Shown here piece after piece: positions 1 through 11,924 of a stretch of DNA of 64,000 nt. Position numbers and translations under genes: made by a program. Where the stretch lies: positions 1 to 64,000 of IMG/VR virus record IMGVR_UViG_3300044556_000025; one strand, 5' to 3'. The notes below the pieces were generated by a model, which saw only the letters and a program-made list of their open reading frames with translations, searched no databases and had not been told where the DNA came from. Numbering within the stretch: position 1 is the first letter of the stretch; every line of letters starts with the position of its first letter. The stretch comes from a virus. Its lineage: Duplodnaviria > Caudoviricetes.

Positions 1-272
1 ATGAGATAGCAGATCAGGTTATCGCCGGGGAGTGGGGCAGCGGAGACGATCGCAAGAGTCGCCTCCAATCGGCAGGCTACGACTATGATGCCATCCAGGC
101 ACTAGTAAATAGCAAGCTAGGCGTGTCGTCGCAGCGCGTTTATTACGTTAAGTCGGGTGACACATTGTCTGAAATTGCAGCTAAATACGGAACTACCGTA
201 AGCTCTATTGCTAGTAAGAATGGCATTTCTAACGTAAACAAAATATATGTGGGGCAGAAGCTAGTAATTTAG
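1..272 (+). CDS. Endolysin C-terminus (CW_7 repeat + LysM), 5'-truncated by the window
   Basis: Frame 3 reads [36 protein letters not shown] (CW_7), then [43 protein letters not shown] (LysM). Confidence 0.9.
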
Positions 273-300
273 TCAGTATTACAAGCGAGTCATGTCTATT

Positions 301-335
301 GTCAGCTAGTCGATTTCGGCTAGCTGATTTTTTTT
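301..335 (+). terminator. Intrinsic terminator
   Basis: TCAGCTAGTCG-ATTT-CGGCTAGCTGA followed by a T-run. Confidence 0.8.
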
Positions 336-396
336 ACTATAAATTCGTTAGAATTTACATAGCAAGCTATCTTCTAATAGAAAGAAGAGACTTATT

Positions 397-1875
397 ATGT
401 CAAAGTTCAACGAAAAGCTTTCTACTTCTGCAAACGCCTCTCATCCATCTTACGAAGGCGGGTCTGTTTTCTACAAGTCTTCGCTAAACGAATGGCTTAA
501 TATACTTTTGTCTTCTAAACTTCAAGACGGATACTACGAAGATGAAGACACTATAGAGGGAAGATTCTTAGATCTTACACGTACAGTTATAGCGATATCT
601 GGTCCAGAGTTTGCTGCAAAGTCGGCAATATTTGCTCGTCGAGAGGTTGGTATGAGGTCGACTTCCGAACTTGTAGCGGCAGTTCTTAACGAATACAAAT
701 TTGAACAGAAACGTTCTTTCTATTCTAAGTTTTTCTATAGGCCTGACGATGTCGCAGAGGTGTTTGCAGCTGTAGATATGTTAGGAGGAAAGAAGTCTCA
801 CGGTCTCCTTAAAGGTGCGTCTAATTATCTCTCTACACTGAACGCATACCAACTAACAAAATACAAGCTCACAAGTCACAAGTATAGTATGTATTCGTTG
901 ATTGACTTGACGCACCCTAAGTCAGTATACATTGACGACTTCTGCAATCATCGTCTCTCTAAGCCCGAAACATGGGAGGTATTAATCTCTTCGTGCAGAG
1001 ACGAAAATGACAAAGCGCTCCGCTGGAAATATCTCGTTGACAACCGAAAGCTGGGCTATCTTGCACTAATTAGGAATTTGAGGAATGTTGTGCGTAGTGT
1101 TTCATCTATAGAGAGTGATTTCTATAGCTGGCTAGAAAGTACGCTCTGCCCTCAAGTAGAAGACAACGAGTCGATTCTAAAATCACTCGTATGGCCGTAT
1201 CAGATTTATACGGCTTATAGGTCGTTTGGCAGTGAAGCTGACATCCCATTCCCGTTGATTAATAGTTTACATAAAGCATTCTACTCTTCGTGCAAGAATT
1301 TGCCGTCGTTGCCGGGAAAGACACTAGCTGTTCTAGACGTTTCAGGATCAATGAATTGCCCATATACCACTACGCTTTCTATTGTCGATACGTGCGCTTC
1401 GTATCTTGCTGGGTTCTTAGCTGCAGACAGCGACCTTGACGTTGTCAAATTCGGAACAAACTGCCGTAAATTTGTCTGCCCCACATACAGAGACTCTAAC
1501 TCTATGGATGTCGTATATAAACTCACAAAGAACGACAACTGTGGGGGTAGCACTAACATAGTTTCGGTATTCGAGTATCTCATAGACAACAAACTTAGTT
1601 ATGACAGCATTTTATTATTCTCTGACATGCAAGTTATGGGAGATTGGTCTTGCGTACGGGGGTTTGGTGCAACTAGATACAATTTTGACGAGTATAAGAA
1701 GACTTGCGGTAAGAGCCATATATACAGCTTTGACCTTGGGAATTATTCCGATCAAATTGTTTCTAAAGATACCGATATCACATATCTAACAGCTATAAAC
1801 CCGTCTGCGTTTAAATTAATTTCTCTAGGAGATTACGAAAACGTCAAGGCTTACGTAGAATCATATAGTCTATAA
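397..1875 (+). CDS. rsr: Ro60/Rsr (TROVE + vWA) RNA-binding protein
   Basis: TROVE motifs ARREVGMRS, RPDD, YQLTKY, LTHPK, ETWE, GYLALIRNLRN; vWA MIDAS DVSGSM, GGSTN, FSDMQ. Confidence 0.92.
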   Translation: MSKFNEKLSTSANASHPSYEGGSVFYKSSLNEWLNILLSSKLQDGYYEDEDTIEGRFLDLTRTVIAISGPEFAAKSAIFARREVGMRSTSELVAAVLNEYKFEQKRSFYSKFFYRPDDVAEVFAAVDMLGGKKSHGLLKGASNYLSTLNAYQLTKYKLTSHKYSMYSLIDLTHPKSVYIDDFCNHRLSKPETWEVLISSCRDENDKALRWKYLVDNRKLGYLALIRNLRNVVRSVSSIESDFYSWLESTLCPQVEDNESILKSLVWPYQIYTAYRSFGSEADIPFPLINSLHKAFYSSCKNLPSLPGKTLAVLDVSGSMNCPYTTTLSIVDTCASYLAGFLAADSDLDVVKFGTNCRKFVCPTYRDSNSMDVVYKLTKNDNCGGSTNIVSVFEYLIDNKLSYDSILLFSDMQVMGDWSCVRGFGATRYNFDEYKKTCGKSHIYSFDLGNYSDQIVSKDTDITYLTAINPSAFKLISLGDYENVKAYVESYSL

Positions 1876-1888
1876 TGTTTAACTACAT

Positions 1889-1963
1889 TCCTCGATAGCG
1901 CAATGGTAGAGCATTCGGCTGTTAACCGAAGTGTTGCAGGTTCGAACCCTGCTCGAGGAGCCA
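1889..1963 (+). tRNA. tRNA-Asn(GTT)
   Basis: Canonical cloverleaf; anticodon arm TTCGG-CTGTTAA-CCGAA; encoded CCA; 13 nt after the Ro60 stop. Confidence 0.95.
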
Positions 1964-1971
1964 TAAACTCT

Positions 1972-1999
1972 AAGCCTAAACCTAAGGTCTAGGCTTTTT
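1972..1999 (+). terminator. Intrinsic terminator
   Basis: AAGCCTA...TAGGCTT followed by TTT. Confidence 0.7.
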
Positions 2000-2018
2000 G
2001 TTTGGCAAACTATTCTAT

Positions 2019-2052
2019 AGGTATTGACTTTTCATCATTCATTCTTTATATT
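2019..2052 (+). promoter_or_regulatory. sigma70-type early promoter (AGGTATTGAC family)
   Basis: TTGACT-17-TATATT; same upstream context at four other sites. Confidence 0.8.
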
Positions 2053-2107
2053 ATTTTCAAGTAGGGAATGCCTACGCTAGTCATCTATCAACAGTTAGGA
2101 GAAACAT

Positions 2108-2377
2108 ATGACTAGTATTACAAAGTCCGACGAGGACATCAAGCGAGAAGCTTACGAGTACATCGATCCGGGTAACATGAATCAGCTTCTCGAGCTCACC
2201 TCTCATAGCGATCTGTTCGACACTGATCTTGTCGGAGAGAACGATGAAGGCGAAGTAGTGCTCACGTCAATCCACGAAGACTATATCCTCATGATTACAT
2301 ATCAGTCTAACAACTGGATCCGCAAGAATTACTATCATATAGACGGAACGTGCGAAGAGCTCTACTCTCACGAGTAA
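2108..2377 (+). CDS. Hypothetical early protein
   Basis: AGGAG RBS, own promoter and terminator, C-ending codon bias. Confidence 0.8.
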   Translation: MTSITKSDEDIKREAYEYIDPGNMNQLLELTSHSDLFDTDLVGENDEGEVVLTSIHEDYILMITYQSNNWIRKNYYHIDGTCEELYSHE

Positions 2378-2383
2378 ACGTAG

Positions 2384-2415
2384 AAGCGCCCAGACAGACT
2401 CTGGGCGCTTTATTT
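2384..2415 (+). terminator. Intrinsic terminator
   Basis: AAGCGCCCAG...CTGGGCGCTT followed by TATTT. Confidence 0.8.
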
Positions 2416-2488
2416 ATGCCGAGTTTCGTTAGTGATAAAAGAAGCAAGCGATGTCAAATATTCAAATATTTTAGCAAATTTCATATTT

Positions 2489-2524
2489 AGGTATTGACAT
2501 TTCGTCGGTTTCGTTTAATATAAT
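2489..2524 (+). promoter_or_regulatory. sigma70-type promoter upstream of the RNA cluster
   Basis: AGGTATTGACA...TAATATAAT; spacer is long (19 nt to TATAAT). Confidence 0.6.
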
Positions 2525-2603
2525 ACACGCAAGTCAAAGAAAGAAGATGTCTTGCAGTATTAGAGTTCAACTTGACAATCGAATAAATTCGTTAATGCTT
2601 ACA

Positions 2604-2842
2604 TAGTCGATTCGCTTGCTTTTGCAAGCTTTCGAAGCGAGGTTCGAACTAACAGAGGAAATTTCAAGCTTTTCTCCTTTCCAAAGGCACTGGACACACA
2701 CTCTGTTAGGGGCTCGGTAAGATTCCGAGGGGGTCGGAGACTCGGCCCTAACGCTTATTTGGCAGTGGAAGCCCCAAACATTGCCCACCGGTAACGTAAA
2801 ACAGAGGGCCCTCGTTGGCGGAGTGGTAAAGCCAACCCGGTG
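2604..2842 (+). ncRNA. Unclassified structured RNA leading the tRNA operon (Y-RNA candidate)
   Basis: Dense helices: TAGTCGA/TCGAACTA, CTAACAGAG/CTCTGTTAG, CTCGG/CCGAG, GGCAGTG/CATTGCC, CACCGG/CCGGTG, GTTGGC/GCCAAC; no credible ORF. Confidence 0.5.
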
Positions 2843-2843
2843 T

Positions 2844-2919
2844 GGGTCCGTAGCTCAGTTGGTAGAGCAGGAGACTTTTAATCTCAAGGTCCGCGGTTCG
2901 AACCCGCGCGGTCCCACCA
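2844..2919 (+). tRNA. tRNA-Lys(TTT)
   Basis: Cloverleaf; GAGA-CTTTTAA-TCTC; encoded CCA; one T-T mismatch in the acceptor stem. Confidence 0.93.
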
Positions 2920-2921
2920 TT

Positions 2922-3015
2922 GGAGAGTTGGCAGAGTCTGGCCGATTGCAGGCGCCTCGAAAGCGTCCGAGCTTAGCAATAAGCTCCGAAGGTTCGAATC
3001 CTTCACTCTCCGCCA
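2922..3015 (+). tRNA. tRNA-Ser(CGA)
   Basis: Long variable arm GAGCTTA-GCAA-TAAGCTC, G73, CCA. Confidence 0.93.
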
Positions 3016-3016
3016 T

Positions 3017-3127
3017 GCGGCAGTAGTTCGTATGGGCCCTTAGCGTGCCTGACGCTAAGATAGTCCGAGGTAGAACGCCTGGTGTCCAATCAGGAACTCT
3101 GGGTTCGAGTCCCAGCTGCCTGCTCCA
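3017..3127 (+). ncRNA. tRNA-Gly(TCC)-derived RNA with a ~33-nt hairpin inserted in the D-loop
   Basis: GCGGCAG acceptor, GTTC/GAAC D-stem, CCTGG-TGTCCAA-TCAGG, CTGGG-TTCGAGT-CCCAG, U73-CCA; insert 3034-3066; G at position 33; bulged T in the acceptor stem. Confidence 0.75.
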
Positions 3128-3147
3128 GCTTTTCGTGACAGCTCAGA

Positions 3148-3221
3148 GGGCCCTTAGCACAGCGGCCTAGTGCATCGAGCTCATAACTCGCGGATCGTCC
3201 GTTCGAATCGGACAGGGCCCA
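3148..3221 (+). tRNA. tRNA-CAT, probably Ile2 (Met not excluded); no encoded CCA
   Basis: GGGCCCT/AGGGCCC acceptor with C4-G69 and C5-G68; CGAG-CTCATAA-CTCG; flanked by a 12-bp inverted repeat. Confidence 0.85.
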
Positions 3222-3257
3222 CTGAGCTGTCACAAGTGATAGAAGAGGCATCAGCAT

Positions 3258-3339
3258 ACCGGGTTGGCGGAATTGGCAGACGCAGGAGACTCAAAATCTC
3301 TCGCCTAATCGCATATGGGTTCGAGTCCCATACCCGGTA
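3258..3339 (+). tRNA. tRNA-Leu(CAA); no encoded CCA
   Basis: ACCGGGT/ACCCGGT; GGAGA-CTCAAAA-TCTCT; variable arm; flanked by an 11-bp inverted repeat. Confidence 0.88.
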
Positions 3340-3375
3340 CGCTGATGCCTCAAATTTTGTATAAGTGGGGGCAAA

Positions 3376-4350
3376 ATGGAAGTAACTTCAAAACACCGAC
3401 AAATCGTATACTTCTATAACAAGATCCTTGGGCTATCGTATAAGTATCTTCATGACAAATATCAACTGTCCGAACGCGCGCTTAGAGATATAGCTGACGG
3501 AAAAGAGTTTCTGTCTTCTAGATATATCAGCACTCTTAAACTGCTTGATATCTTAGGGGTATCGATTCCCGATTTCTTGCCCCCAGAATCTAGAGCTTAT
3601 ATACTGAAGACACAGATTAGACCTAAAGTTAAGCGCTGGCACGAAATCAACAATGTTTCACTGAGGTCTATCTCTCGTATTACTCATGTTAACTTTCAGA
3701 CCATTAGGCATATTTATTACGAAGTGACAGAAAACGTAGAAGTTAAGACTATTCGGTTGATTTTGTTTGCCCCGAAAGATATGTCTGTGGAAAAGTCAAC
3801 GTTAACATATGACGCTTCTCAGTATGTCCAGGATATGGATAGGTGGATCCGCGACGGCATTCCTACAAAGACTATATGTTTCTATTGTGACGGTTTGACT
3901 CCCGCGCTTATAGGAAATCGGCACATGTACAGCCGGGTTTCGTATGATTCGTTTATGAGTTATATGCGAGGAAAAGATGAATTAGATAAACTTGCATACG
4001 CGATAGAGTTTAACACAGATCCGTCTAAGGCTCTAGAAGAAGCCGGAATCGCGAGGAGATATCGAACTTGTCAGGTATGCGGCAAGAAGTTTGTTGACAA
4101 CTCGAAGAGCGATACCAAATACTGCTCTAATAAGTGTTATAAAGAAGCTCAAAAAGCTATCCATCGAGAGTCTAGACGAAAGAAAGCTACTAAGTACGAA
4201 AAAGTTTGCCCAATGTGCGGAACTAAATTCGTTACTACATATGCACATAAAATTTATTGTTCTAAAGAGTGTTCGTCAAAACACAAGAACGAAGTTCGTC
4301 GTATTAAAAACAAACAGAAGCGCGAAGAAGGTGATGTTAGTGGACGTTAG
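3376..4350 (+). CDS. Multi-HTH protein with two C-terminal CxxC..YCS..C zinc fingers
   Basis: XRE-like N-terminal repeats; CQVCGKKF..YCSNKC and CPMCGTKF..YCSKEC. Confidence 0.7.
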   Translation: MEVTSKHRQIVYFYNKILGLSYKYLHDKYQLSERALRDIADGKEFLSSRYISTLKLLDILGVSIPDFLPPESRAYILKTQIRPKVKRWHEINNVSLRSISRITHVNFQTIRHIYYEVTENVEVKTIRLILFAPKDMSVEKSTLTYDASQYVQDMDRWIRDGIPTKTICFYCDGLTPALIGNRHMYSRVSYDSFMSYMRGKDELDKLAYAIEFNTDPSKALEEAGIARRYRTCQVCGKKFVDNSKSDTKYCSNKCYKEAQKAIHRESRRKKATKYEKVCPMCGTKFVTTYAHKIYCSKECSSKHKNEVRRIKNKQKREEGDVSGR

Positions 4351-5770: not shown

Positions 5771-7828
5771 GTGGGCCTTTTTAGTAATTCTCAAGTAGCT
5801 GCAATAAACGAAGTAGCTAAGAAGAGCAAAGCTATTAAGGCTCCTACAAACACTAGTCGTGTTTCATCTGTAAACGATGAGCTCATTCAGTCTTCTAAGG
5901 CTGTCGAAGAGTACTTCAAGGACAGCAAAGCGATTCTGATTACTACAAAGCCGCAGCTTCACGATTACGTGACTGCGGCTATTTCTGTAGGAATTGTTGG
6001 AATAGATACTGAGACAACGGGCCTCGACCGAAACAACGACTACATTGTAGGAGCTTCTCTTTACTACCCCGGCGGCGTAGAATGCTATATAGCAATGAAA
6101 CATAGAGTGCCCGTATTTGAGACACCATACAACAATCAGCTTTCTTACAAAGACGTAGCAGATGAACTATATCGGTTTGTAGAACACAAAACAAAGCTCG
6201 TATTTGCAAACGCCAACTACGACTTGTATATGATTTGGAAAGATTTACATGTAGATTTAGACTCTTGTTTCTACTACGACGTAATCTTAGCTTGGCGTTG
6301 TATGAAAGAGGACGAGCTACACAACGGTTTGAAGGAACTTTATAACAAGTATGTGCTGAAAGGCAAAGGGGATCCGAAGCGATTCTCTGACTTCTTCTCG
6401 CCTAAACTGTTCCCATACTCAAAGCCAGACGTCGCGAAGCTGTATGCCGCAAACGACGCTAAAATTACGTATGACTTGTACGTATGGCAATATCAATACT
6501 CTAACCCGAAGTCTGAGAAGTGTAAGAAAAATCATCTAGAAAACATTGCTCAGCTTATCTGGAATCTCGAGTTCCCTCTAGTACACGTTTGTCAGACAAT
6601 AGAGCGAACAGGCATGTACATAGATCAAGACATGGGCAAAGTGCTTCATAACAAGTACTCGGCACTCTACGAGCAAGAGTTTAACAAGCTAGGTTCGATG
6701 GTTGACGAAATTATAGAAAATAACCCCCAGCCAATGTCTTCAAAGAAGCCTCCGTTTACGTCTAGCAAAGACTTCAACCCTAAGTCAACGACACACGTTC
6801 AATATCTTCTTTATACGCTATTAGGGATTCCGAAGGTAGAAGGCAAGATGCCTACGGGCAAGGAGTTCTTAGACGAGGTAAATCTTCCTGTGGCGACGCA
6901 AATTGCAAAAGTTCGCAGTCTTGCAACGAACATCAATACGTTCGTTGACAAGTTGCCTGACGGAGTAGCTAAAGACGGCCGGATCCACGCTGACTTCAAG
7001 CAAATTGGCGCAGCGTGCGTCACAGGAGACACTGTAATTTGGACGTATGAAGGTCCAAAACCCATAGAAGACATCTACGAAGAGTCGTTTGGTCGAGAGC
7101 TCGATGAATACACATCGGGCGAATATAAAGACTGTGACGACCTTCAGCTATATAACAAATACGGTGATTTAGAAAAAGTATCAAGTATTGTCGGGTATTA
7201 CAATCAACCCGTAGTGACTGTTCATCTATCTAACGGATCGTCTATTACTGGTACTTATCACCACTTAGTTCTTTGTGTAAAGAGCGAAGACGAAGACATA
7301 TCTCAGTGTCTCGACAATTATACAGAGTTTAGGACGCTGAGTTCTATTAAAAAAGACGATATTATAGTGTGTATGTGTGACGATACAGATTTTTCGTCGG
7401 TAGGATACGAGTATGCATACGTAACTCATATAGACTTTGAAGATAACTCTAACGTATACGATGTCGTAATGCCTCAAACACATTCGTTCGTCGGAAACGG
7501 AATTGTCAATCATAATACTGGCAGGATGAGTTCAGCTGCGCCGAACCTACAGAACATACCTTCGAAACTTAATGATATTCGTCATCTCTTTCGCGGTGAC
7601 CCAAAACGCATCGAGGACGTATCCGGTGAAGTAGACGGCAACGAAGTCACATTCAAACTTCGTAAGTTTTCTAAAGTAGCGACAGGTTCAAACGAGCTTT
7701 CATTTGTAAATGATCTGACTATTGGGAGTTCTGTTATCATTGATAAAGACGGAATGTCTAGTTGTTTAAAAGTATCTGCAATAAAGCCTTGTTACGACCA
7801 AAAGTTTGTATATGTCACCTTAGAGTAA
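5771..7828 (+). CDS. polA: Family A DNA polymerase, N-terminal half (3'-5' exonuclease + thumb), with intein
   Basis: DTETTGL, NANYD, YAANDA, GRIH, TGRMSS..PNLQNIP. Confidence 0.92.
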   Translation: MGLFSNSQVAAINEVAKKSKAIKAPTNTSRVSSVNDELIQSSKAVEEYFKDSKAILITTKPQLHDYVTAAISVGIVGIDTETTGLDRNNDYIVGASLYYPGGVECYIAMKHRVPVFETPYNNQLSYKDVADELYRFVEHKTKLVFANANYDLYMIWKDLHVDLDSCFYYDVILAWRCMKEDELHNGLKELYNKYVLKGKGDPKRFSDFFSPKLFPYSKPDVAKLYAANDAKITYDLYVWQYQYSNPKSEKCKKNHLENIAQLIWNLEFPLVHVCQTIERTGMYIDQDMGKVLHNKYSALYEQEFNKLGSMVDEIIENNPQPMSSKKPPFTSSKDFNPKSTTHVQYLLYTLLGIPKVEGKMPTGKEFLDEVNLPVATQIAKVRSLATNINTFVDKLPDGVAKDGRIHADFKQIGAACVTGDTVIWTYEGPKPIEDIYEESFGRELDEYTSGEYKDCDDLQLYNKYGDLEKVSSIVGYYNQPVVTVHLSNGSSITGTYHHLVLCVKSEDEDISQCLDNYTEFRTLSSIKKDDIIVCMCDDTDFSSVGYEYAYVTHIDFEDNSNVYDVVMPQTHSFVGNGIVNHNTGRMSSAAPNLQNIPSKLNDIRHLFRGDPKRIEDVSGEVDGNEVTFKLRKFSKVATGSNELSFVNDLTIGSSVIIDKDGMSSCLKVSAIKPCYDQKFVYVTLE
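7016..7516 (+). mobile_element. Mini-intein (167 aa) in Pol-N
   Basis: C1 CVTGDT, block B GTYHH, VYD..HSF..NG.VNHN|T. Confidence 0.92.
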
Positions 7829-7994: not shown

Positions 7995-10040
7995 GTGATG
8001 TACATGTATAAGATACATACAGAGACGCCTGAATATGTCGTAATGTCTTCCGACTTTAGTCAGCAAGAGCCTAGGCTTCTTGCATTCTGCGCTCGAAGCC
8101 AAGAGCTTATTGAAGCCTTTAAACAAGGTAGAGACATTTATTCGACAATTGCGGCTATCGCATATAACATGCCTTACGAAAAATGCCTCGAATTCAACCC
8201 AGACACAGGGGAGTATCAACCAGACGGCAAAGCTCGCAGAAGCGAAGCTAAGACAATTGTACTTGGCATTGCTTACGGTCGTTCTGTCCCGTCAATTGGC
8301 GAGCAGCTTTTTAGTCACAACGATGAAATGTCAGACGAAGACAAAACCAAAGAAGCTCAGCGCATTTACGATTCTGTAATGAAAGCTTTCCCAGAACTCG
8401 AAGCGTTGATGAAGAGCGCTCAGGCATACGCACGCAAGCACGGGTACACAGAGACAATCCTCGGTCGTCGGCGCCATCTCCCAGATATGACGCTCCCTGA
8501 GTTTGAGTTTAAGCCTCTGCCGGGATACGTTAACCCTGACATTGACCCGCTAGATTTGTCAAGTCTTGAAAACGCAGAGACAGGAATCCCTGAGTCTAGA
8601 ATTAAACAGCTAGAGCAAGAGTTTCATAAGTATAAGTATTTCGGTCAGATTGCTAGGCGTACCAAAGAGCTTTACGAGAAAGAACACATTAGAGTTATCA
8701 ACAATAGACCGAAGATAAACGATGCTCGTCGGCAGTGCGTAAACTGCGTAGATGACGAAACAGAGATACTGACATTAAACGGATGGAAGACATTTGACAA
8801 AGTTTCAAAAGGCGACGAAATAATTTCTTACAATTTAGGCAAGAACTGTCTAGAGCGTGACGTTGTGAACGAAGTTATCAGTGAAACCTCTGATGACGGC
8901 TTTGAGTTATATCATATGTACAACAAGAACTTCAATTCTATGTCCACGCTAAACCACCGTTGGGTGACGAGAACTGACGACGTAAACGATAGAAAGTATC
9001 GAATTTACGATACTTCGCATCTTGTGAGCGTAAAGAACCCCCGCTATCAAATTCTTCGAATTGCCGATTATGAATGCGAAGATAATTCACAGTTTTTTGG
9101 GAAAGTTGAATTTGTATGCGAGTCTATTTTCAAAAACAGTATTTCGTATAGAGACATATTGTCTTTGAGTGGCAGCTTTGCCAAAAAGTGCTATAGCTGG
9201 ATTTTCGATAATAAGTCTGCCCGCGGAGCTGTTGTTGTGAAAGACAAAGAGGTAGCAAGCAAGCTACAAACTTTGGGCATTTTAGCAGGAAAAGTTTGCA
9301 ACGTAAACGAAACAGTTTCTGTCGACGGAACTTCTTCTTATAGAGTTTCATGGTCTGAAATTAACAAGCCGTATAACGATGTTGCTAGGATAAAGTCTCT
9401 TAAGAAAGAAAAAGTTTCTAGAAACCACGTATGGTGCGTTTCGACAAACAACGGAACATGGGTTGCTCGTCGTTCGGGGACGTGCTTCATAACTGGAAAC
9501 TCTATTATTCAGGGTTCGGCAGCTGACTTTACTAAAATGGCATTACTAAAGCTCTGTCGAGATCCTAGATGGGAAGCGTGCGGCGGCGAGATATTAACTG
9601 TAGTACACGATGAAATCATTGCTCAAGCCCCTGTCGATTTCGCAGAAGAAGCTGGCAAGGTACTGCAGTCTGACATGGAAGGCGCCGGCTCTTTTCTGCC
9701 GTTCCCGATTAACTGCGATGTTACAACGACATACCGCTGGTACGGTCTAGAAATTCCTTGTAAGTTCGATGTACCTACAGACTTAAGCTTAAACTCTGAA
9801 AACGATCTTTCTTGGGTACAGTGGCATCTAGTCGAGATGGGGTTCGAGCTCCCTAATTTCAAAGACAAAAACGGAAACGACCCTATCGGCGATGCGGCTC
9901 ACGGAGTTTCAGGACAATTGTCAGATGAAATGATTAAAGCTATTGAAACGTACTGCGATCGTTATCATATCAGTAAGGACAGTTTCATAGATGACATTAG
10001 GCAACGTGTTGAAACTGGAATAGTAGAAAGGGCAAGTTAA
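7995..10040 (+). CDS. polA: Family A DNA polymerase, C-terminal half (motifs A/B/C), with intein
   Basis: DFSQQEPR, RSEAKTIVLGIAYG, IQGSAAD, VHDE. Confidence 0.92.
   Translation: MMYMYKIHTETPEYVVMSSDFSQQEPRLLAFCARSQELIEAFKQGRDIYSTIAAIAYNMPYEKCLEFNPDTGEYQPDGKARRSEAKTIVLGIAYGRSVPSIGEQLFSHNDEMSDEDKTKEAQRIYDSVMKAFPELEALMKSAQAYARKHGYTETILGRRRHLPDMTLPEFEFKPLPGYVNPDIDPLDLSSLENAETGIPESRIKQLEQEFHKYKYFGQIARRTKELYEKEHIRVINNRPKINDARRQCVNCVDDETEILTLNGWKTFDKVSKGDEIISYNLGKNCLERDVVNEVISETSDDGFELYHMYNKNFNSMSTLNHRWVTRTDDVNDRKYRIYDTSHLVSVKNPRYQILRIADYECEDNSQFFGKVEFVCESIFKNSISYRDILSLSGSFAKKCYSWIFDNKSARGAVVVKDKEVASKLQTLGILAGKVCNVNETVSVDGTSSYRVSWSEINKPYNDVARIKSLKKEKVSRNHVWCVSTNNGTWVARRSGTCFITGNSIIQGSAADFTKMALLKLCRDPRWEACGGEILTVVHDEIIAQAPVDFAEEAGKVLQSDMEGAGSFLPFPINCDVTTTYRWYGLEIPCKFDVPTDLSLNSENDLSWVQWHLVEMGFELPNFKDKNGNDPIGDAAHGVSGQLSDEMIKAIETYCDRYHISKDSFIDDIRQRVETGIVERAS
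8745..9500 (+). mobile_element. Intein (252 aa) in Pol-C with a degenerate endonuclease remnant
   Basis: CVDDETEILT, TLNHRW, VWCVST..ITGN|S. Confidence 0.9.
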
Positions 10041-11143
10041 TGAAGTTTACGCTAAATACTAAGCCTCTCGTAGCCGGACTAGATCTAGGTATTATCAACT
10101 CTAACATCACTAAGTTTTATCAGAAGAGCTGCATTGTCGAGCTCAACATCGAAGATGGTAACCTTCGAGTAAATACAGAAGTTTCTGCTATCAAGTCCGA
10201 GCTTGTGTTTAAGGGCAGCGTTTCCGGAGAAGATGAATACTCTCACACGTTCGTTGACAGCCTTCTTTTCAAGAATCTGATTAACTCCGTAGACAGTGAC
10301 GTAATTGACATTGAGATTAAAGAGGGCGGACTTACCGTATACTCTGGCAAGTCTAAGTTTAATCTGCCTCAAGTCGTTTCAGAATCTGACATGTCTCTCG
10401 CTCGTCCCGTAGAGTACACAGAAGCTTCTGAAGGGACTATCGAGGTCAATAAGAGCGACTGGAAGTTCGTACAAGACTACCAGATGTACGCAATCGCAAT
10501 GTCATTTATCCATCCCGTATATACTATGGCATGGATGGGCAATAGTGGGGACGTAATTGTCGGCGACTTCGACAATTCTATCTTCACGCATTCTAACAAG
10601 TCGCAGATGCCGTCTACGTGCCTTGTAACAGACACAATTGTCAACCTCCTTAACAACCTGCCCGAAGGATCTAAGCTCGTAAATCTCGGTCGTACTTACG
10701 AGCTCGCAGTAGTCCTCGACCCTTATAGCTATGTATGTGAGTTCTCGCCGAAGTACGAAGAGGACGAAGGCGTAGGTACGTACAACTCTGACATCATTCT
10801 GTCTTTATTTAATCACACAGACAGCGTCGAAGTTAATACCTCAAAGCTGTCTAAGTACCTTGCTCAGGCTGAGCTGTTTACAAAGACGAATGATGATACT
10901 ATTACGCTATCTCTTGACAATAACGTCCTTTCTCTCAAAAACGATAGTGTAAATTGCAACGTTGACGTAACTTCTAGCCTTAGTCCTTTTACGGTAGACT
11001 TCAAGATTCGATTCTTGAAGGACGCTCTCTCGCACCTAGACAGCGAAGATATTCATCTGTGCCCTCTAATTCAGGAAGATCAAGCCACGGGGATAATCCT
11101 CTGGACCGAAAACATGGAAACAGTTCTAGCCGGAATCGAGTAA
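10040..11143 (+). CDS. dnaN: Beta sliding clamp-like protein
   Basis: 367 aa; MKFTLN start; F..RFLKDAL near the C-terminus; located between Pol and DnaX. Confidence 0.75.
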   Translation: MKFTLNTKPLVAGLDLGIINSNITKFYQKSCIVELNIEDGNLRVNTEVSAIKSELVFKGSVSGEDEYSHTFVDSLLFKNLINSVDSDVIDIEIKEGGLTVYSGKSKFNLPQVVSESDMSLARPVEYTEASEGTIEVNKSDWKFVQDYQMYAIAMSFIHPVYTMAWMGNSGDVIVGDFDNSIFTHSNKSQMPSTCLVTDTIVNLLNNLPEGSKLVNLGRTYELAVVLDPYSYVCEFSPKYEEDEGVGTYNSDIILSLFNHTDSVEVNTSKLSKYLAQAELFTKTNDDTITLSLDNNVLSLKNDSVNCNVDVTSSLSPFTVDFKIRFLKDALSHLDSEDIHLCPLIQEDQATGIILWTENMETVLAGIE

Positions 11144-11147
11144 AACA

Positions 11148-11924
11148 GTGGGATTTATACGAATTTCTGACACCGTAAATGGAAAGTCAAGTAATTCGCC
11201 CGTAGCCCAGAACTTCAAGTCTATGTACGACAAGATAGTATTCGACAAGTATCAAAAAGAGGAGCAACACGTTTCTTCAAGGACGTTTGCTCCTTCTTCT
11301 TTTAGGTGCGATCGGCTGTCTTTCTTTAGGCTTAGAGGAGTCCCTGCGGACGAAAACGTAAACGTAGACAGCGTATTAAGCTTCTCTGCAGTTCTCGGGA
11401 CTGCAATGCACCGAGAGATTCAGTCAAATCTGAAGGAAGCTATCGGAGACAATTGGATAAACGTTCCCGATTTTCTAAAAACACATGACGTAGGTCACGA
11501 CTATGAAATTGGGAATAGCTCAGAGTTTGAAACACAGCTTGAATTCAAAAACCCTCCTGTAAGGTTTTCTTGTGACGGTCTTATAAAGATAGGCGAGACT
11601 GTATATCTACTTGAGATAAAGTCGTCTAACCCGCAGCCGTTTTCTTCTTTATACAAGCCTAAGCCAAATCACATAGATCAAGTTAAGTGCTATTGTGCGT
11701 TAATGAACATTGACAGGGCGTTGGTACTTTATCAAGATAGAATGTACGGGCAAACAAAGTGCTTCGAAGTAGACGTTCCAGACAGCGAGAAACAAGCTGT
11801 GTTTGACCGTATGGATAGAGTTATGGACTTCGTTAATAAATGTGTAGCCCCGCCAAGGCTCCCCAAAGGCGACTACTGGTGTACATATTGCAAATACAAG
11901 AAGCGTTGTGATAGCTGGGGTTAA
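11148..11924 (+). CDS. Cas4-like PD-(D/E)XK exonuclease
   Basis: C..R, GTAMH, DG..EIKS, Q..Y, C-terminal CTYCKYKKRC Fe-S ligands. Confidence 0.85.
   Translation: MGFIRISDTVNGKSSNSPVAQNFKSMYDKIVFDKYQKEEQHVSSRTFAPSSFRCDRLSFFRLRGVPADENVNVDSVLSFSAVLGTAMHREIQSNLKEAIGDNWINVPDFLKTHDVGHDYEIGNSSEFETQLEFKNPPVRFSCDGLIKIGETVYLLEIKSSNPQPFSSLYKPKPNHIDQVKCYCALMNIDRALVLYQDRMYGQTKCFEVDVPDSEKQAVFDRMDRVMDFVNKCVAPPRLPKGDYWCTYCKYKKRCDSWG

What the first reader, a model, noticed from the sequence alone, without database searches (positions are those of the whole stretch)
3017..3127. tRNA-Gly body with a 33-nt hairpin in the D-loop, G33 and an acceptor-stem bulge
Seen: all four arms and U73-CCA are retained, but GGGC-C-CTTAGCGT-GCCTG-ACGCTAAG-ATA-GTCC sits between the D-stem strands. 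The invariant U33 is G, and the acceptor 3' strand has an extra T. The perfect 8-bp insert stem argues against simple decay. The 3' side reads GTCCGAGGTAG, close to the Ro60-binding strand of human Y1 RNA (GUCCGAAGGUAG, recalled from memory). The first 11 nt of the insert (GGGCCCTTAGC, 3034) are identical to the 5' end of the next tRNA (3148), suggesting local duplication as its origin. Inference: a non-translating tRNA mimic.
Basis: partly seen in the sequence, partly recalled or inferred. Interest (0 to 1): 0.8.

Follow-up and report, generated by a model that had tools for sequence, protein, structure and literature searches.

The report
Disabled glycine tRNA beside phage Ro60
In an uncultured phage's tRNA operon, a glycine tRNA gene carries an inserted hairpin and two other lesions, so it almost certainly cannot decode; it lies next to the phage's Ro60 gene but shows none of the marks of a Ro60 partner RNA, so it is most likely a recently disabled tRNA.

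Summary
The element is a tRNA-Gly(UCC) body with:
- a 33-nt bulged hairpin in the D-loop, part of a 37-nt insert flanked by 7-nt direct repeats;
- G at position 33;
- an extra U in the acceptor 3' strand;
- U73-CCA.

ARAGORN and Rfam do not call it. ARAGORN calls tRNA-Gly(tcc) once 37 nt are deleted in silico. The nearest comparable phage has an ordinary tRNA-Gly(UCC) beside the same Met(cat) and Leu(caa) genes.

An intact Ro60/Rsr (TROVE) gene lies 1.1 kb upstream on the same strand. However, the element matches neither Rfam YrlA nor Y_RNA. It also lacks the handle (UGAUGR...UUACUUC...UUUC) shared by Y RNAs next to Rsr in most of the 77 related phage loci. The "GUCCGAGGUAG" string is the duplicated D-arm.

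No orthologue or close relative of this phage was found, so conservation could not be tested.

Best reading (about 0.5): a translation-dead tRNA derivative made by a local duplicative or fold-back insertion, still co-transcribed and probably still processed. A Y-RNA-like partner of Rsr remains possible (about 0.2).

The parts
3017..3127 (+). Whole element: a 111-nt tRNA-Gly(UCC)-derived gene with U73 and an encoded CCA. It starts 1 nt after tRNA-Ser and ends 7 nt before the clamp helix of tRNA-Met.
3031..3067 (+). 37-nt insert, in one of several equivalent registers. Removing it restores a 74-nt tRNA-Gly(tcc).
   Evidence: ARAGORN on in-silico deletions
3024..3030 (+). Direct repeat copy 1, TAGTTCG: U8, A9, the D-stem 5' strand and G14.
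   Evidence: read directly
3061..3067 (+). Direct repeat copy 2, TAGTCCG. Its GUCC(G) forms the outer stem of the hairpin with (U)GGGC at 3033-3037. It can alternatively act as a D-stem 5' strand with one C-A mismatch.
3034..3066 (+). 33-nt bulged hairpin: outer stem GGGC/GUCC, a C bulge and an AUA bulge, a perfect 8-bp stem CUUAGCGU/ACGCUAAG (3039-3046 with 3052-3059), and loop GCCUG.
3034..3044 (+). 11 nt (GGGCCCTTAGC) identical to the 5' end of tRNA-Met at 3148-3158.
   Evidence: (D6)
3083..3089 (+). Anticodon loop UGUCCAA: U32, G33 (3084), anticodon UCC (3085-3087), A37, A38.
3099..3115 (+). Canonical T arm, CUGGG-UUCGAGU-CCCAG.
3116..3127 (+). Acceptor 3' strand CUGCC-U-GC with the extra U at 3121, discriminator U at 3124 and CCA at 3125-3127.
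2494..2521 (+). Sigma-70-like promoter (TTGACA-16-TAATAT) heading the RNA operon: leader, Lys, Ser, the element, Met, Leu.
397..1875 (+). Context: the phage Ro60/Rsr gene (492 aa, TROVE domain plus vWA DxSxS motif), same strand, ending 1.1 kb upstream of the element.

Best explanation
The element descends from the phage cluster's own tRNA-Gly(UCC) gene and can no longer decode.

Shown:
- A 37-nt insertion flanked by 7-nt direct repeats puts a 13-bp bulged hairpin into the D-loop.
- The insert begins with an 11-nt copy of the 5' end of the neighbouring tRNA-Met, followed by a fold-back.
- G33, together with U32 and A38, lets the anticodon loop close.
- An extra U bulges the acceptor stem between two Gly identity pairs.

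Inferred:
- The gene sits inside a promoter-driven polycistronic tRNA operon, 1 nt after tRNA-Ser and 7 nt before the tRNA-Met helix, so it is transcribed with its neighbours.
- Its acceptor stem is fully paired apart from the one bulged U, and its T arm is intact. RNase P and 3' trimming should therefore still release it as a roughly 111-nt RNA ending in CCA.
- That processing would also give tRNA-Ser its 3' end.
- Most likely it is a fairly young pseudo-tRNA tolerated as a processable spacer. It is not a demonstrated Ro60 partner.
For: - Anatomy and fold.
- Rejected by ARAGORN and by Rfam at gathering; only a partial tRNA hit.
- tRNA-Gly(tcc) is restored by deleting 37 nt.
- L004, the fetched phage with the most similar Rsr, carries an ordinary tRNA-Gly(tcc) next to Met(cat) and Leu(caa), with Lys(ttt) and Ser nearby. 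This is the same tRNA set as here, so the ancestor gene was a normal tRNA.
- The body minus the insert is 62% identical to the L004 Gly gene, within the range of the other pairs (59-80%).
- The hairpin and the 11-mer are non-random and local, which fits a single duplication or fold-back event.
- The promoter is at 2494-2521 and there is no room for another before tRNA-Met.
- No YrlA or Y_RNA match and no Rsr handle.
- The insert is not a repeat family anywhere.
Against: - All four stems are still fully paired, and the T-loop, G18 G19, U73-CCA and the Gly identity bases are all kept. That is more order than random decay predicts, although only three or four lesions have accrued.
- The one difference between the direct repeats (T to C at 3065) turns a G-U pair into G-C in the hairpin's outer stem. 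This could hint at selection for the hairpin.
- The phage keeps an intact Rsr gene but has no recognisable Y RNA in 92.5 kb. Some odd RNA near rsr may therefore be its partner.
- Phage genomes carry few dead genes.
- No homologues exist to show either neutrality or constraint.
Confidence: 0.5

Rival explanations
1. The element is an exapted, non-permuted, tRNA-shaped partner RNA of the phage Ro60/Rsr, a Y-RNA analogue. The D-loop hairpin or the bulged acceptor helix would be the docking site, and the tRNA body would recruit a tRNA-binding effector.
For: - An intact rsr gene lies 1.1 kb upstream on the same strand, within the 4-kb same-strand rule of Chen et al. 2014 (PMC4201824).
- The contig has no YrlA and no canonical handle, so Rsr lacks a visible partner.
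- Y RNAs of related phages are tRNA-like. Non-permuted acceptor/T-arm RNAs that carry the handle exist at L069:129-260 and L077:4280-4416.
- The helices are fully kept.
Against: - No RF02553 or RF00019 match at E <= 10, while the positive control L057 scores 39 bits.
- The UGAUGR / UUACUUC / UUUC handle, shared across Rsr proteins 26-48% identical to this one, is absent.
- About 25 related loci (the L005-L025 group) also lack an adjacent Y RNA, so absence is not special.
- 39% of the genome is missing.
- GUCCGAGGUAG is explained by the duplicated D-arm.
Confidence: 0.2
2. The element is a tRNA-shaped decoy or sponge with another target. It might soak up a host tRNA-cleaving defence nuclease or a tRNA-binding enzyme, or act in cis on processing of the neighbouring tRNA-Met, whose first 11 nt it copies.
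For: - The acceptor/T-arm, elbow nucleotides and Gly identity bases are retained while the decoding loop is altered.
- The copy of the tRNA-Met 5' end could pair with the tRNA-Met 3' acceptor strand (I12, D6).
- Non-decoding tRNA-like RNAs are known in phage tRNA regions. RNA species I and II of T-even phages are mentioned in PMC2330249.
Against: - No homologue, no partner gene and no conserved motif were found.
- No RNA repair or nuclease genes lie near it.
- The idea is purely inferential.
Confidence: 0.12
3. The element is still a working tRNA-Gly. Either the hairpin projects harmlessly from the variable pocket of the D-loop, or it is removed at the RNA level like an intron.
For: - GGA plus GGG make up 46% of Gly codons, and the contig has no other tRNA-Gly.
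- The hairpin base resembles a bulge-helix-bulge: GUA, then GGGC:GUCC, then AUA.
Against: - G33 replaces the near-universal U33, and the acceptor stem is bulged.
- Cutting at the bulges would leave a 13-nt D-loop, not a normal tRNA. Only an exact 37-nt removal restores the standard form.
- The contig has no splicing endonuclease, RtcB or RNA ligase. The one ligase hit is NAD-dependent DNA ligase.
- The promoters and replisome are bacterial in type, and bacteria lack this kind of splicing.
Confidence: 0.05
4. The insert is an assembly or amplification artefact in a single metagenomic contig, and the real gene is an ordinary tRNA-Gly.
For: - There is only one contig and no second copy anywhere.
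- Fold-back chimeras are a known artefact type (general knowledge).
Against: G33 and the extra U are independent lesions in the same gene. That fits a truly degenerate gene better than one artefact. No reads were available to check.
Confidence: 0.05

Closest known systems
Pseudo-tRNAs and disrupted tRNA genes in phage tRNA clusters
   Same: Recognisable isoacceptor body, lesions at positions essential for decoding, rejected by tRNA detectors, embedded among working tRNA genes.
   Different: All stems are still fully paired. The lesion is a structured 37-nt insert with direct repeats, not scattered substitutions.
YrlA-type Y RNAs bound by Ro60/Rsr (Rfam RF02553; Chen et al. 2014, PMC4201824; Wang et al. 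2018, bioRxiv 10.1101/312249)
   Same: tRNA-like RNA encoded within 4 kb of rsr on the same strand. T arm and D arm are of tRNA type.
   Different: - YrlA is circularly permuted, has a closed acceptor stem-loop and no free CCA, and carries the Rsr-binding handle at its paired ends.
- This element has normal tRNA order, free ends with CCA, an anticodon arm, no handle and no match to the covariance model.
RNA species I and II of T-even phage tRNA regions (mentioned in PMC2330249; details from memory)
   Same: Small non-decoding RNAs encoded inside a phage tRNA operon and presumably released by the tRNA processing enzymes.
   Different: Those RNAs are conserved among T-even phages. This element has no known homologue and is plainly a tRNA-Gly with an insert.
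Archaeal non-canonical tRNA introns (bulge-helix-bulge) at D-loop positions (from general knowledge)
   Same: A short insert in the D-arm region. Two 3-nt bulges lie on opposite strands, separated by 4 bp at the base of the insert.
   Different: The phage is of bacterial type. It has no splicing endonuclease or RNA ligase, and the predicted cuts would not restore a normal D-loop.

Membership tests
Canonical elongator tRNA (Rfam RF00005 / ARAGORN) | Detected as a full-length tRNA by the covariance model or by ARAGORN | tested here: not met
   Not called. Only model positions 8-63 match, at 22.5 bits against a gathering score of 29.
Canonical elongator tRNA (Rfam RF00005 / ARAGORN) | Four-arm cloverleaf with a canonical T-loop and G18 G19 | tested here: met
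   The MFE and centroid fold is a cloverleaf plus hairpin. The T-loop is UUCGAGU and the D-loop keeps GG.
Canonical elongator tRNA (Rfam RF00005 / ARAGORN) | U33, a 7-nt open anticodon loop, an uninterrupted 7-bp acceptor stem and a D-loop of about 7-11 nt | tested here: not met
   G33 at 3084. U32-A38 can pair, leaving a 5-nt loop. There is an extra U at 3121 and 43 nt between the D-stem strands.
Canonical elongator tRNA (Rfam RF00005 / ARAGORN) | Bacterial Gly identity set: U73, G1-C72, C2-G71, G3-C70, C35, C36 (from general knowledge) | tested here: inconclusive
   All the bases are present, but the extra U lies between pairs 2-71 and 3-70. Charging was not testable.
YrlA Y RNA (RF02553) | Match to the YrlA covariance model | tested here: not met
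   No hit at E <= 10 in 2980-3160 or in 1-3400. None at E <= 0.05 in the whole 92.5-kb contig. The positive control L057:5843-5959 scores 39 bits, E = 1.6e-7.
YrlA Y RNA (RF02553) | Rsr-binding handle at the paired 5' and 3' ends. In this Rsr clade: stem A, UGAUGR, stem B, UUACUUC ... stem B', NNNNUUUC, stem A' | tested here: not met
   The handle was derived from 77 loci. It is absent from the element. In the contig it occurs only twice, both inside ORFs and at the background rate.
YrlA Y RNA (RF02553) | Permuted tRNA-like domain (T arm, closed acceptor stem-loop, D arm) with no free CCA | tested here: not met
   The element has normal tRNA order with free ends and an encoded CCA.
YrlA Y RNA (RF02553) | Encoded within about 4 kb of the Ro60 gene on the same strand (PMC4201824) | tested here: met
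   rsr is at 397-1875 (+) and the element at 3017-3127 (+).
YrlA Y RNA (RF02553) | Bound by Rsr | not testable with these tools
   Needs a pull-down or gel shift.
Metazoan-type Y RNA (RF00019) | Model match, and a conserved helix with GGUCCGA on the 5' strand and a bulged C | tested here: not met
   No hit at E <= 10. GUCCG is on the 3' strand of the hairpin base and both C's are paired.
Bulge-helix-bulge tRNA intron | 3-nt bulge, 4-bp helix, 3-nt bulge; excision restores a mature tRNA; a splicing endonuclease and ligase are available | tested here: not met
   The core geometry is approximated. Only an exact 37-nt removal restores the tRNA. No PF01974 or PF01139 hit was found, and the ligase hit is LigA.
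Small repeated palindromic element (REP or MITE-like) | Many copies in the phage or in some host genome | tested here: not met
   The insert is single-copy in the contig. The stem pattern is found 4 times in 596 Gb of genomes, in unrelated taxa, and 0 times in IMG/VR.

The most novel reading that the evidence does not exclude
In a phage that has Ro60/Rsr but no YrlA, this ordinary-order tRNA-Gly body with a D-loop hairpin, possibly together with the neighbouring odd RNAs, is the Rsr partner and uses a docking site unlike any described Y RNA handle.
Probability: 0.15. Interest if true: 0.7.

Novelty: new member of a known kind. Interest (0 to 1): 0.33.

Why it matters
If it is only a disabled tRNA, it is a tidy example of how phage tRNA clusters lose genes. 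A single local duplication or fold-back event hits the D-loop, while the acceptor/T-arm half stays intact, perhaps because neighbouring tRNAs need it for processing.

If instead it binds the adjacent Ro60, it would show that a Ro60 partner RNA can arise in one step from a working tRNA. That bears on the proposed tRNA origin of Y RNAs (Chen et al. 2014). It would also give a minimal, testable RNA for asking what the tRNA-like part of Y RNAs is for.

Tried and rejected
1. Searches for orthologues. All of the following found nothing:
- exact-pattern scans of IMG/VR for the D-arm/anticodon junction and for the T-arm/acceptor;
- an exact-pattern scan of JGI metagenomes for the anticodon arm;
- close-relative scans with Rsr, the downstream ORF and PolA;
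- blastn against GenBank phages, which hit only ordinary tRNAs;
- tblastn with Rsr, where the best cultured phage is below 30% identical.

2. Known Y RNA. Rejected by the Rfam scans and the handle motif. A loose two-stem descriptor scan was too unspecific to use. MAFFT could not align the 3' half of the handle well enough to build a covariance model.

3. Intron. Rejected.

4. REP-like mobile hairpin. Rejected.

5. Homing-endonuclease scar.
- The downstream ORF (3376-4350) matches a PHROG labelled HNH endonuclease, but only over two zinc ribbons.
- Pfam finds no nuclease domain in that ORF.
- The contig has no GIY-YIG domain.
- This idea is left as unsupported.

6. The UGAUAG box at 3237-3242 as a handle for tRNA-Leu. 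It is not conserved in L004 and has no UUACUUC or UUUC partner.

Full report
**Setting**

The window is the first 64 kb of a 92.6-kb IMG/VR phage contig, estimated about 61% complete, with 42% G+C.

ARAGORN and Rfam find five tRNAs:
- Asn, 1889-1963
- Lys(ttt), 2844-2919
- Ser(cga), 2922-3015
- Met(cat), 3148-3222
- Leu(caa), 3258-3340

The finding fills the gap between Ser and Met. A sigma-70-like promoter at 2494-2521 precedes a 316-nt structured leader and this tRNA row. The gap after Ser is 1 nt. The gap before the helix that encloses tRNA-Met is 7 nt. The element must therefore be transcribed with its neighbours; this is an inference.

**Observation**

RNAfold returns the cloverleaf with a D-loop hairpin as both MFE and centroid: -44.2 kcal/mol, z = -2.37.

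The body is tRNA-Gly(UCC):
- It aligns with the ordinary tRNA-Gly(tcc) of locus L004, including U73-CCA and the loop UCCAA. It has U32 G33 where L004 has C32 U33.
- ARAGORN calls tRNA-Gly(tcc) as soon as 37 nt are deleted, in any register from 3024 to 3032.
- That register freedom comes from 7-nt direct repeats, TAGTTCG (3024-3030) and TAGTCCG (3061-3067), which flank a 30-nt payload.

The payload starts, after TAT, with GGGCCCTTAGC. These are the first 11 nt of tRNA-Met. It then folds back on itself to make the 8-bp stem.

Both features are non-random:
- A perfect hairpin of 8 bp or more occurs in 329 of 200,000 shuffles of the insert.
- An 11-mer shared with the neighbourhood occurs in 87 of 20,000 shuffles.

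**Ancestry**

L004 is the phage locus with the most similar Rsr among those fetched. Around its rsr gene it has Lys(ttt), Ser, Met(cat), Gly(tcc) and Leu(caa). The element therefore descends from a normal tRNA-Gly(UCC).

Without the insert, the element is 62% identical to the L004 Gly gene. The other pairs are Met 59%, Ser 70%, Leu 73% and Lys 80%.

**Can it decode?**

Very unlikely, for these reasons:
- G33 replaces the near-universal U33.
- U32 and A38 can pair, which leaves a 5-nt loop.
- The extra U at 3121 lies between identity pairs 2-71 and 3-70.
- The D-loop is interrupted.
- The Rfam tRNA model covers only positions 8-63, at 22.5 bits.

**Ro60 context**

ORF 397-1875 is a full-length Ro60/Rsr:
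- It carries a TROVE domain.
- It matches PHROG 850, annotated 'RNA-binding protein'.
- 1,490 homologues were found, and it aligns over 93-100% of its length with the 120 listed.
- The vWA DxSxS motif is invariant in the alignment.

I fetched 77 phage loci with Rsr relatives. Most carry one to five small RNAs directly upstream of rsr with a shared handle: stem A, UGAUGR, stem B, UUACUUC ... stem B', NNNNUUUC, stem A'. Many also have a permuted tRNA-like core.

Rfam YrlA hits one of these RNAs full-length at 39 bits, E = 1.6e-7, below its gathering score of 69. These RNAs are therefore divergent YrlA members, and the model works as a positive control.

In this phage:
- There is no YrlA hit at E <= 10 around the element or in 1-3400.
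- There is none at E <= 0.05 in the whole contig.
- The handle motif occurs only twice, both times inside ORFs and at the background rate.
- The element's insert has none of the handle boxes.
- Its 'GUCCGAGGUAG' is the second copy of the D-arm 5' half joined to the original GGUAG of the D-loop.
- In the predicted fold both C's are paired, unlike the bulged-C helix of Y RNAs.

The Ro60 gene is thus a real and suggestive neighbour, but no defining feature of a Y RNA is met except position. A subgroup of about 25 related loci also lacks adjacent Y RNAs, and 39% of this genome is unassembled.

**Other readings tested**
- Intron: the hairpin base approximates a bulge-helix-bulge. However, cuts there would leave a 13-nt D-loop. 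The contig has no splicing endonuclease or RtcB, and its only ligase is NAD-dependent DNA ligase.
- Mobile palindromic element: the insert is single-copy here and essentially absent from 596 Gb of genomes and from IMG/VR.
- Homing-endonuclease scar, with SegB in the T4 tRNA cluster (PMC2330249) as precedent: the downstream ORF matches an 'HNH' PHROG only over zinc ribbons, Pfam finds no nuclease domain in it, and there is no GIY-YIG domain in the contig.

**Conservation**

None could be assessed. No orthologue and no close relative of this phage turned up in IMG/VR, JGI metagenomes or GenBank phages.

**Verdict**

The most economical explanation is a tRNA-Gly(UCC) gene disabled by a single local duplicative or fold-back insertion plus two small lesions. 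It is still co-transcribed and probably still processed, because its acceptor stem (fully paired apart from the one bulged U) and T arm are kept. I put this at about 0.5.

Three points keep functional readings alive: all helices remain fully paired, one base change strengthens the hairpin's outer stem, and Rsr has no visible partner RNA. I put an Rsr partner at about 0.2 and another decoy or processing role at about 0.12.

Earlier scan notes report handle-bearing tRNA-shaped Y RNAs beside phage Ro60 genes on other DNA. Here the handle test is negative.

Noticed in passing
window 397-1875, and the whole contig (L085, L086): The phage has an intact Ro60/Rsr gene but no YrlA (Rfam, E <= 0.05) and no handle motif anywhere in the 92.5-kb contig. 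Most related phages carry one to five handle-bearing Y RNAs right upstream of rsr.
   Followed up: yes
L004-L080, about 50-700 nt upstream of rsr (e.g. L057:5830-5971, L004:5829-5908): Phage Y RNAs share a handle: stem A, UGAUGR, stem B, UUACUUC ... stem B', NNNNUUUC, stem A'. The Rfam YrlA gathering score (69 bits) misses them. L057 scores 39 bits, so default annotation overlooks this large group.
   Followed up: partly
window 3135-3233 and 3245-3351; L004:8080-8195: tRNA-Met and tRNA-Leu lack an encoded CCA, and 13 extra base pairs extend their acceptor stems. The Leu(caa) clamp recurs in L004 with a different sequence (GATGCTAGA / TCTAGCATC) followed by a U-run. The helix is therefore conserved by compensation and may act as a terminator or processing helix.
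   Followed up: partly
window 2802-2843: A chimera of tRNA 5' fragments sits just before tRNA-Lys. CAGAGGGCCCT copies the leader and 5' end of tRNA-Met. GTTGGCGGA copies part of the tRNA-Leu 5' region. GCCAACCCGGTGTG is complementary to the tRNA-Leu 5' end. Four of the six GGGCCC sites in the contig lie within 2806-3215.
   Followed up: partly
window 2528-2843: A 316-nt structured non-coding leader lies between the promoter and tRNA-Lys. Its only Rfam hint is a weak partial RAGATH-36 match at 2710-2771 (30 bits against a gathering score of 70).
   Followed up: no
L069:129-260; L077:4280-4416: These are RNAs in ordinary (non-permuted) order. A 7-bp acceptor stem and a T arm enclose the GUUACUUC / GUUACAUC handle, and the RNAs end in ACC / ACA. 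This is a second layout of Rsr-associated tRNA-like RNAs.
   Followed up: partly
L041:4478-4567; L034:12492-12582; L077:2224-2315, 9821-9907, 10949-11034, 11216-11303: tRNAs for class I amino acids (Ile-UAU, Met, Gln, Asn) of 86-92 nt carry long extra arms in the variable region, in Rsr-encoding phages.
   Followed up: no
window 3376-4350: This 324-aa ORF lies right after the tRNA operon. It has two CxxCG..F..YCSxxC zinc ribbons. Its PHROG label 'HNH endonuclease' rests on the ribbons only, and Pfam finds no nuclease domain.
   Followed up: partly
window 5771-7828 and 7995-10040: Family A DNA polymerase is split into two ORFs. The first carries a weak intein-splicing-domain match at its end.
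   Followed up: no
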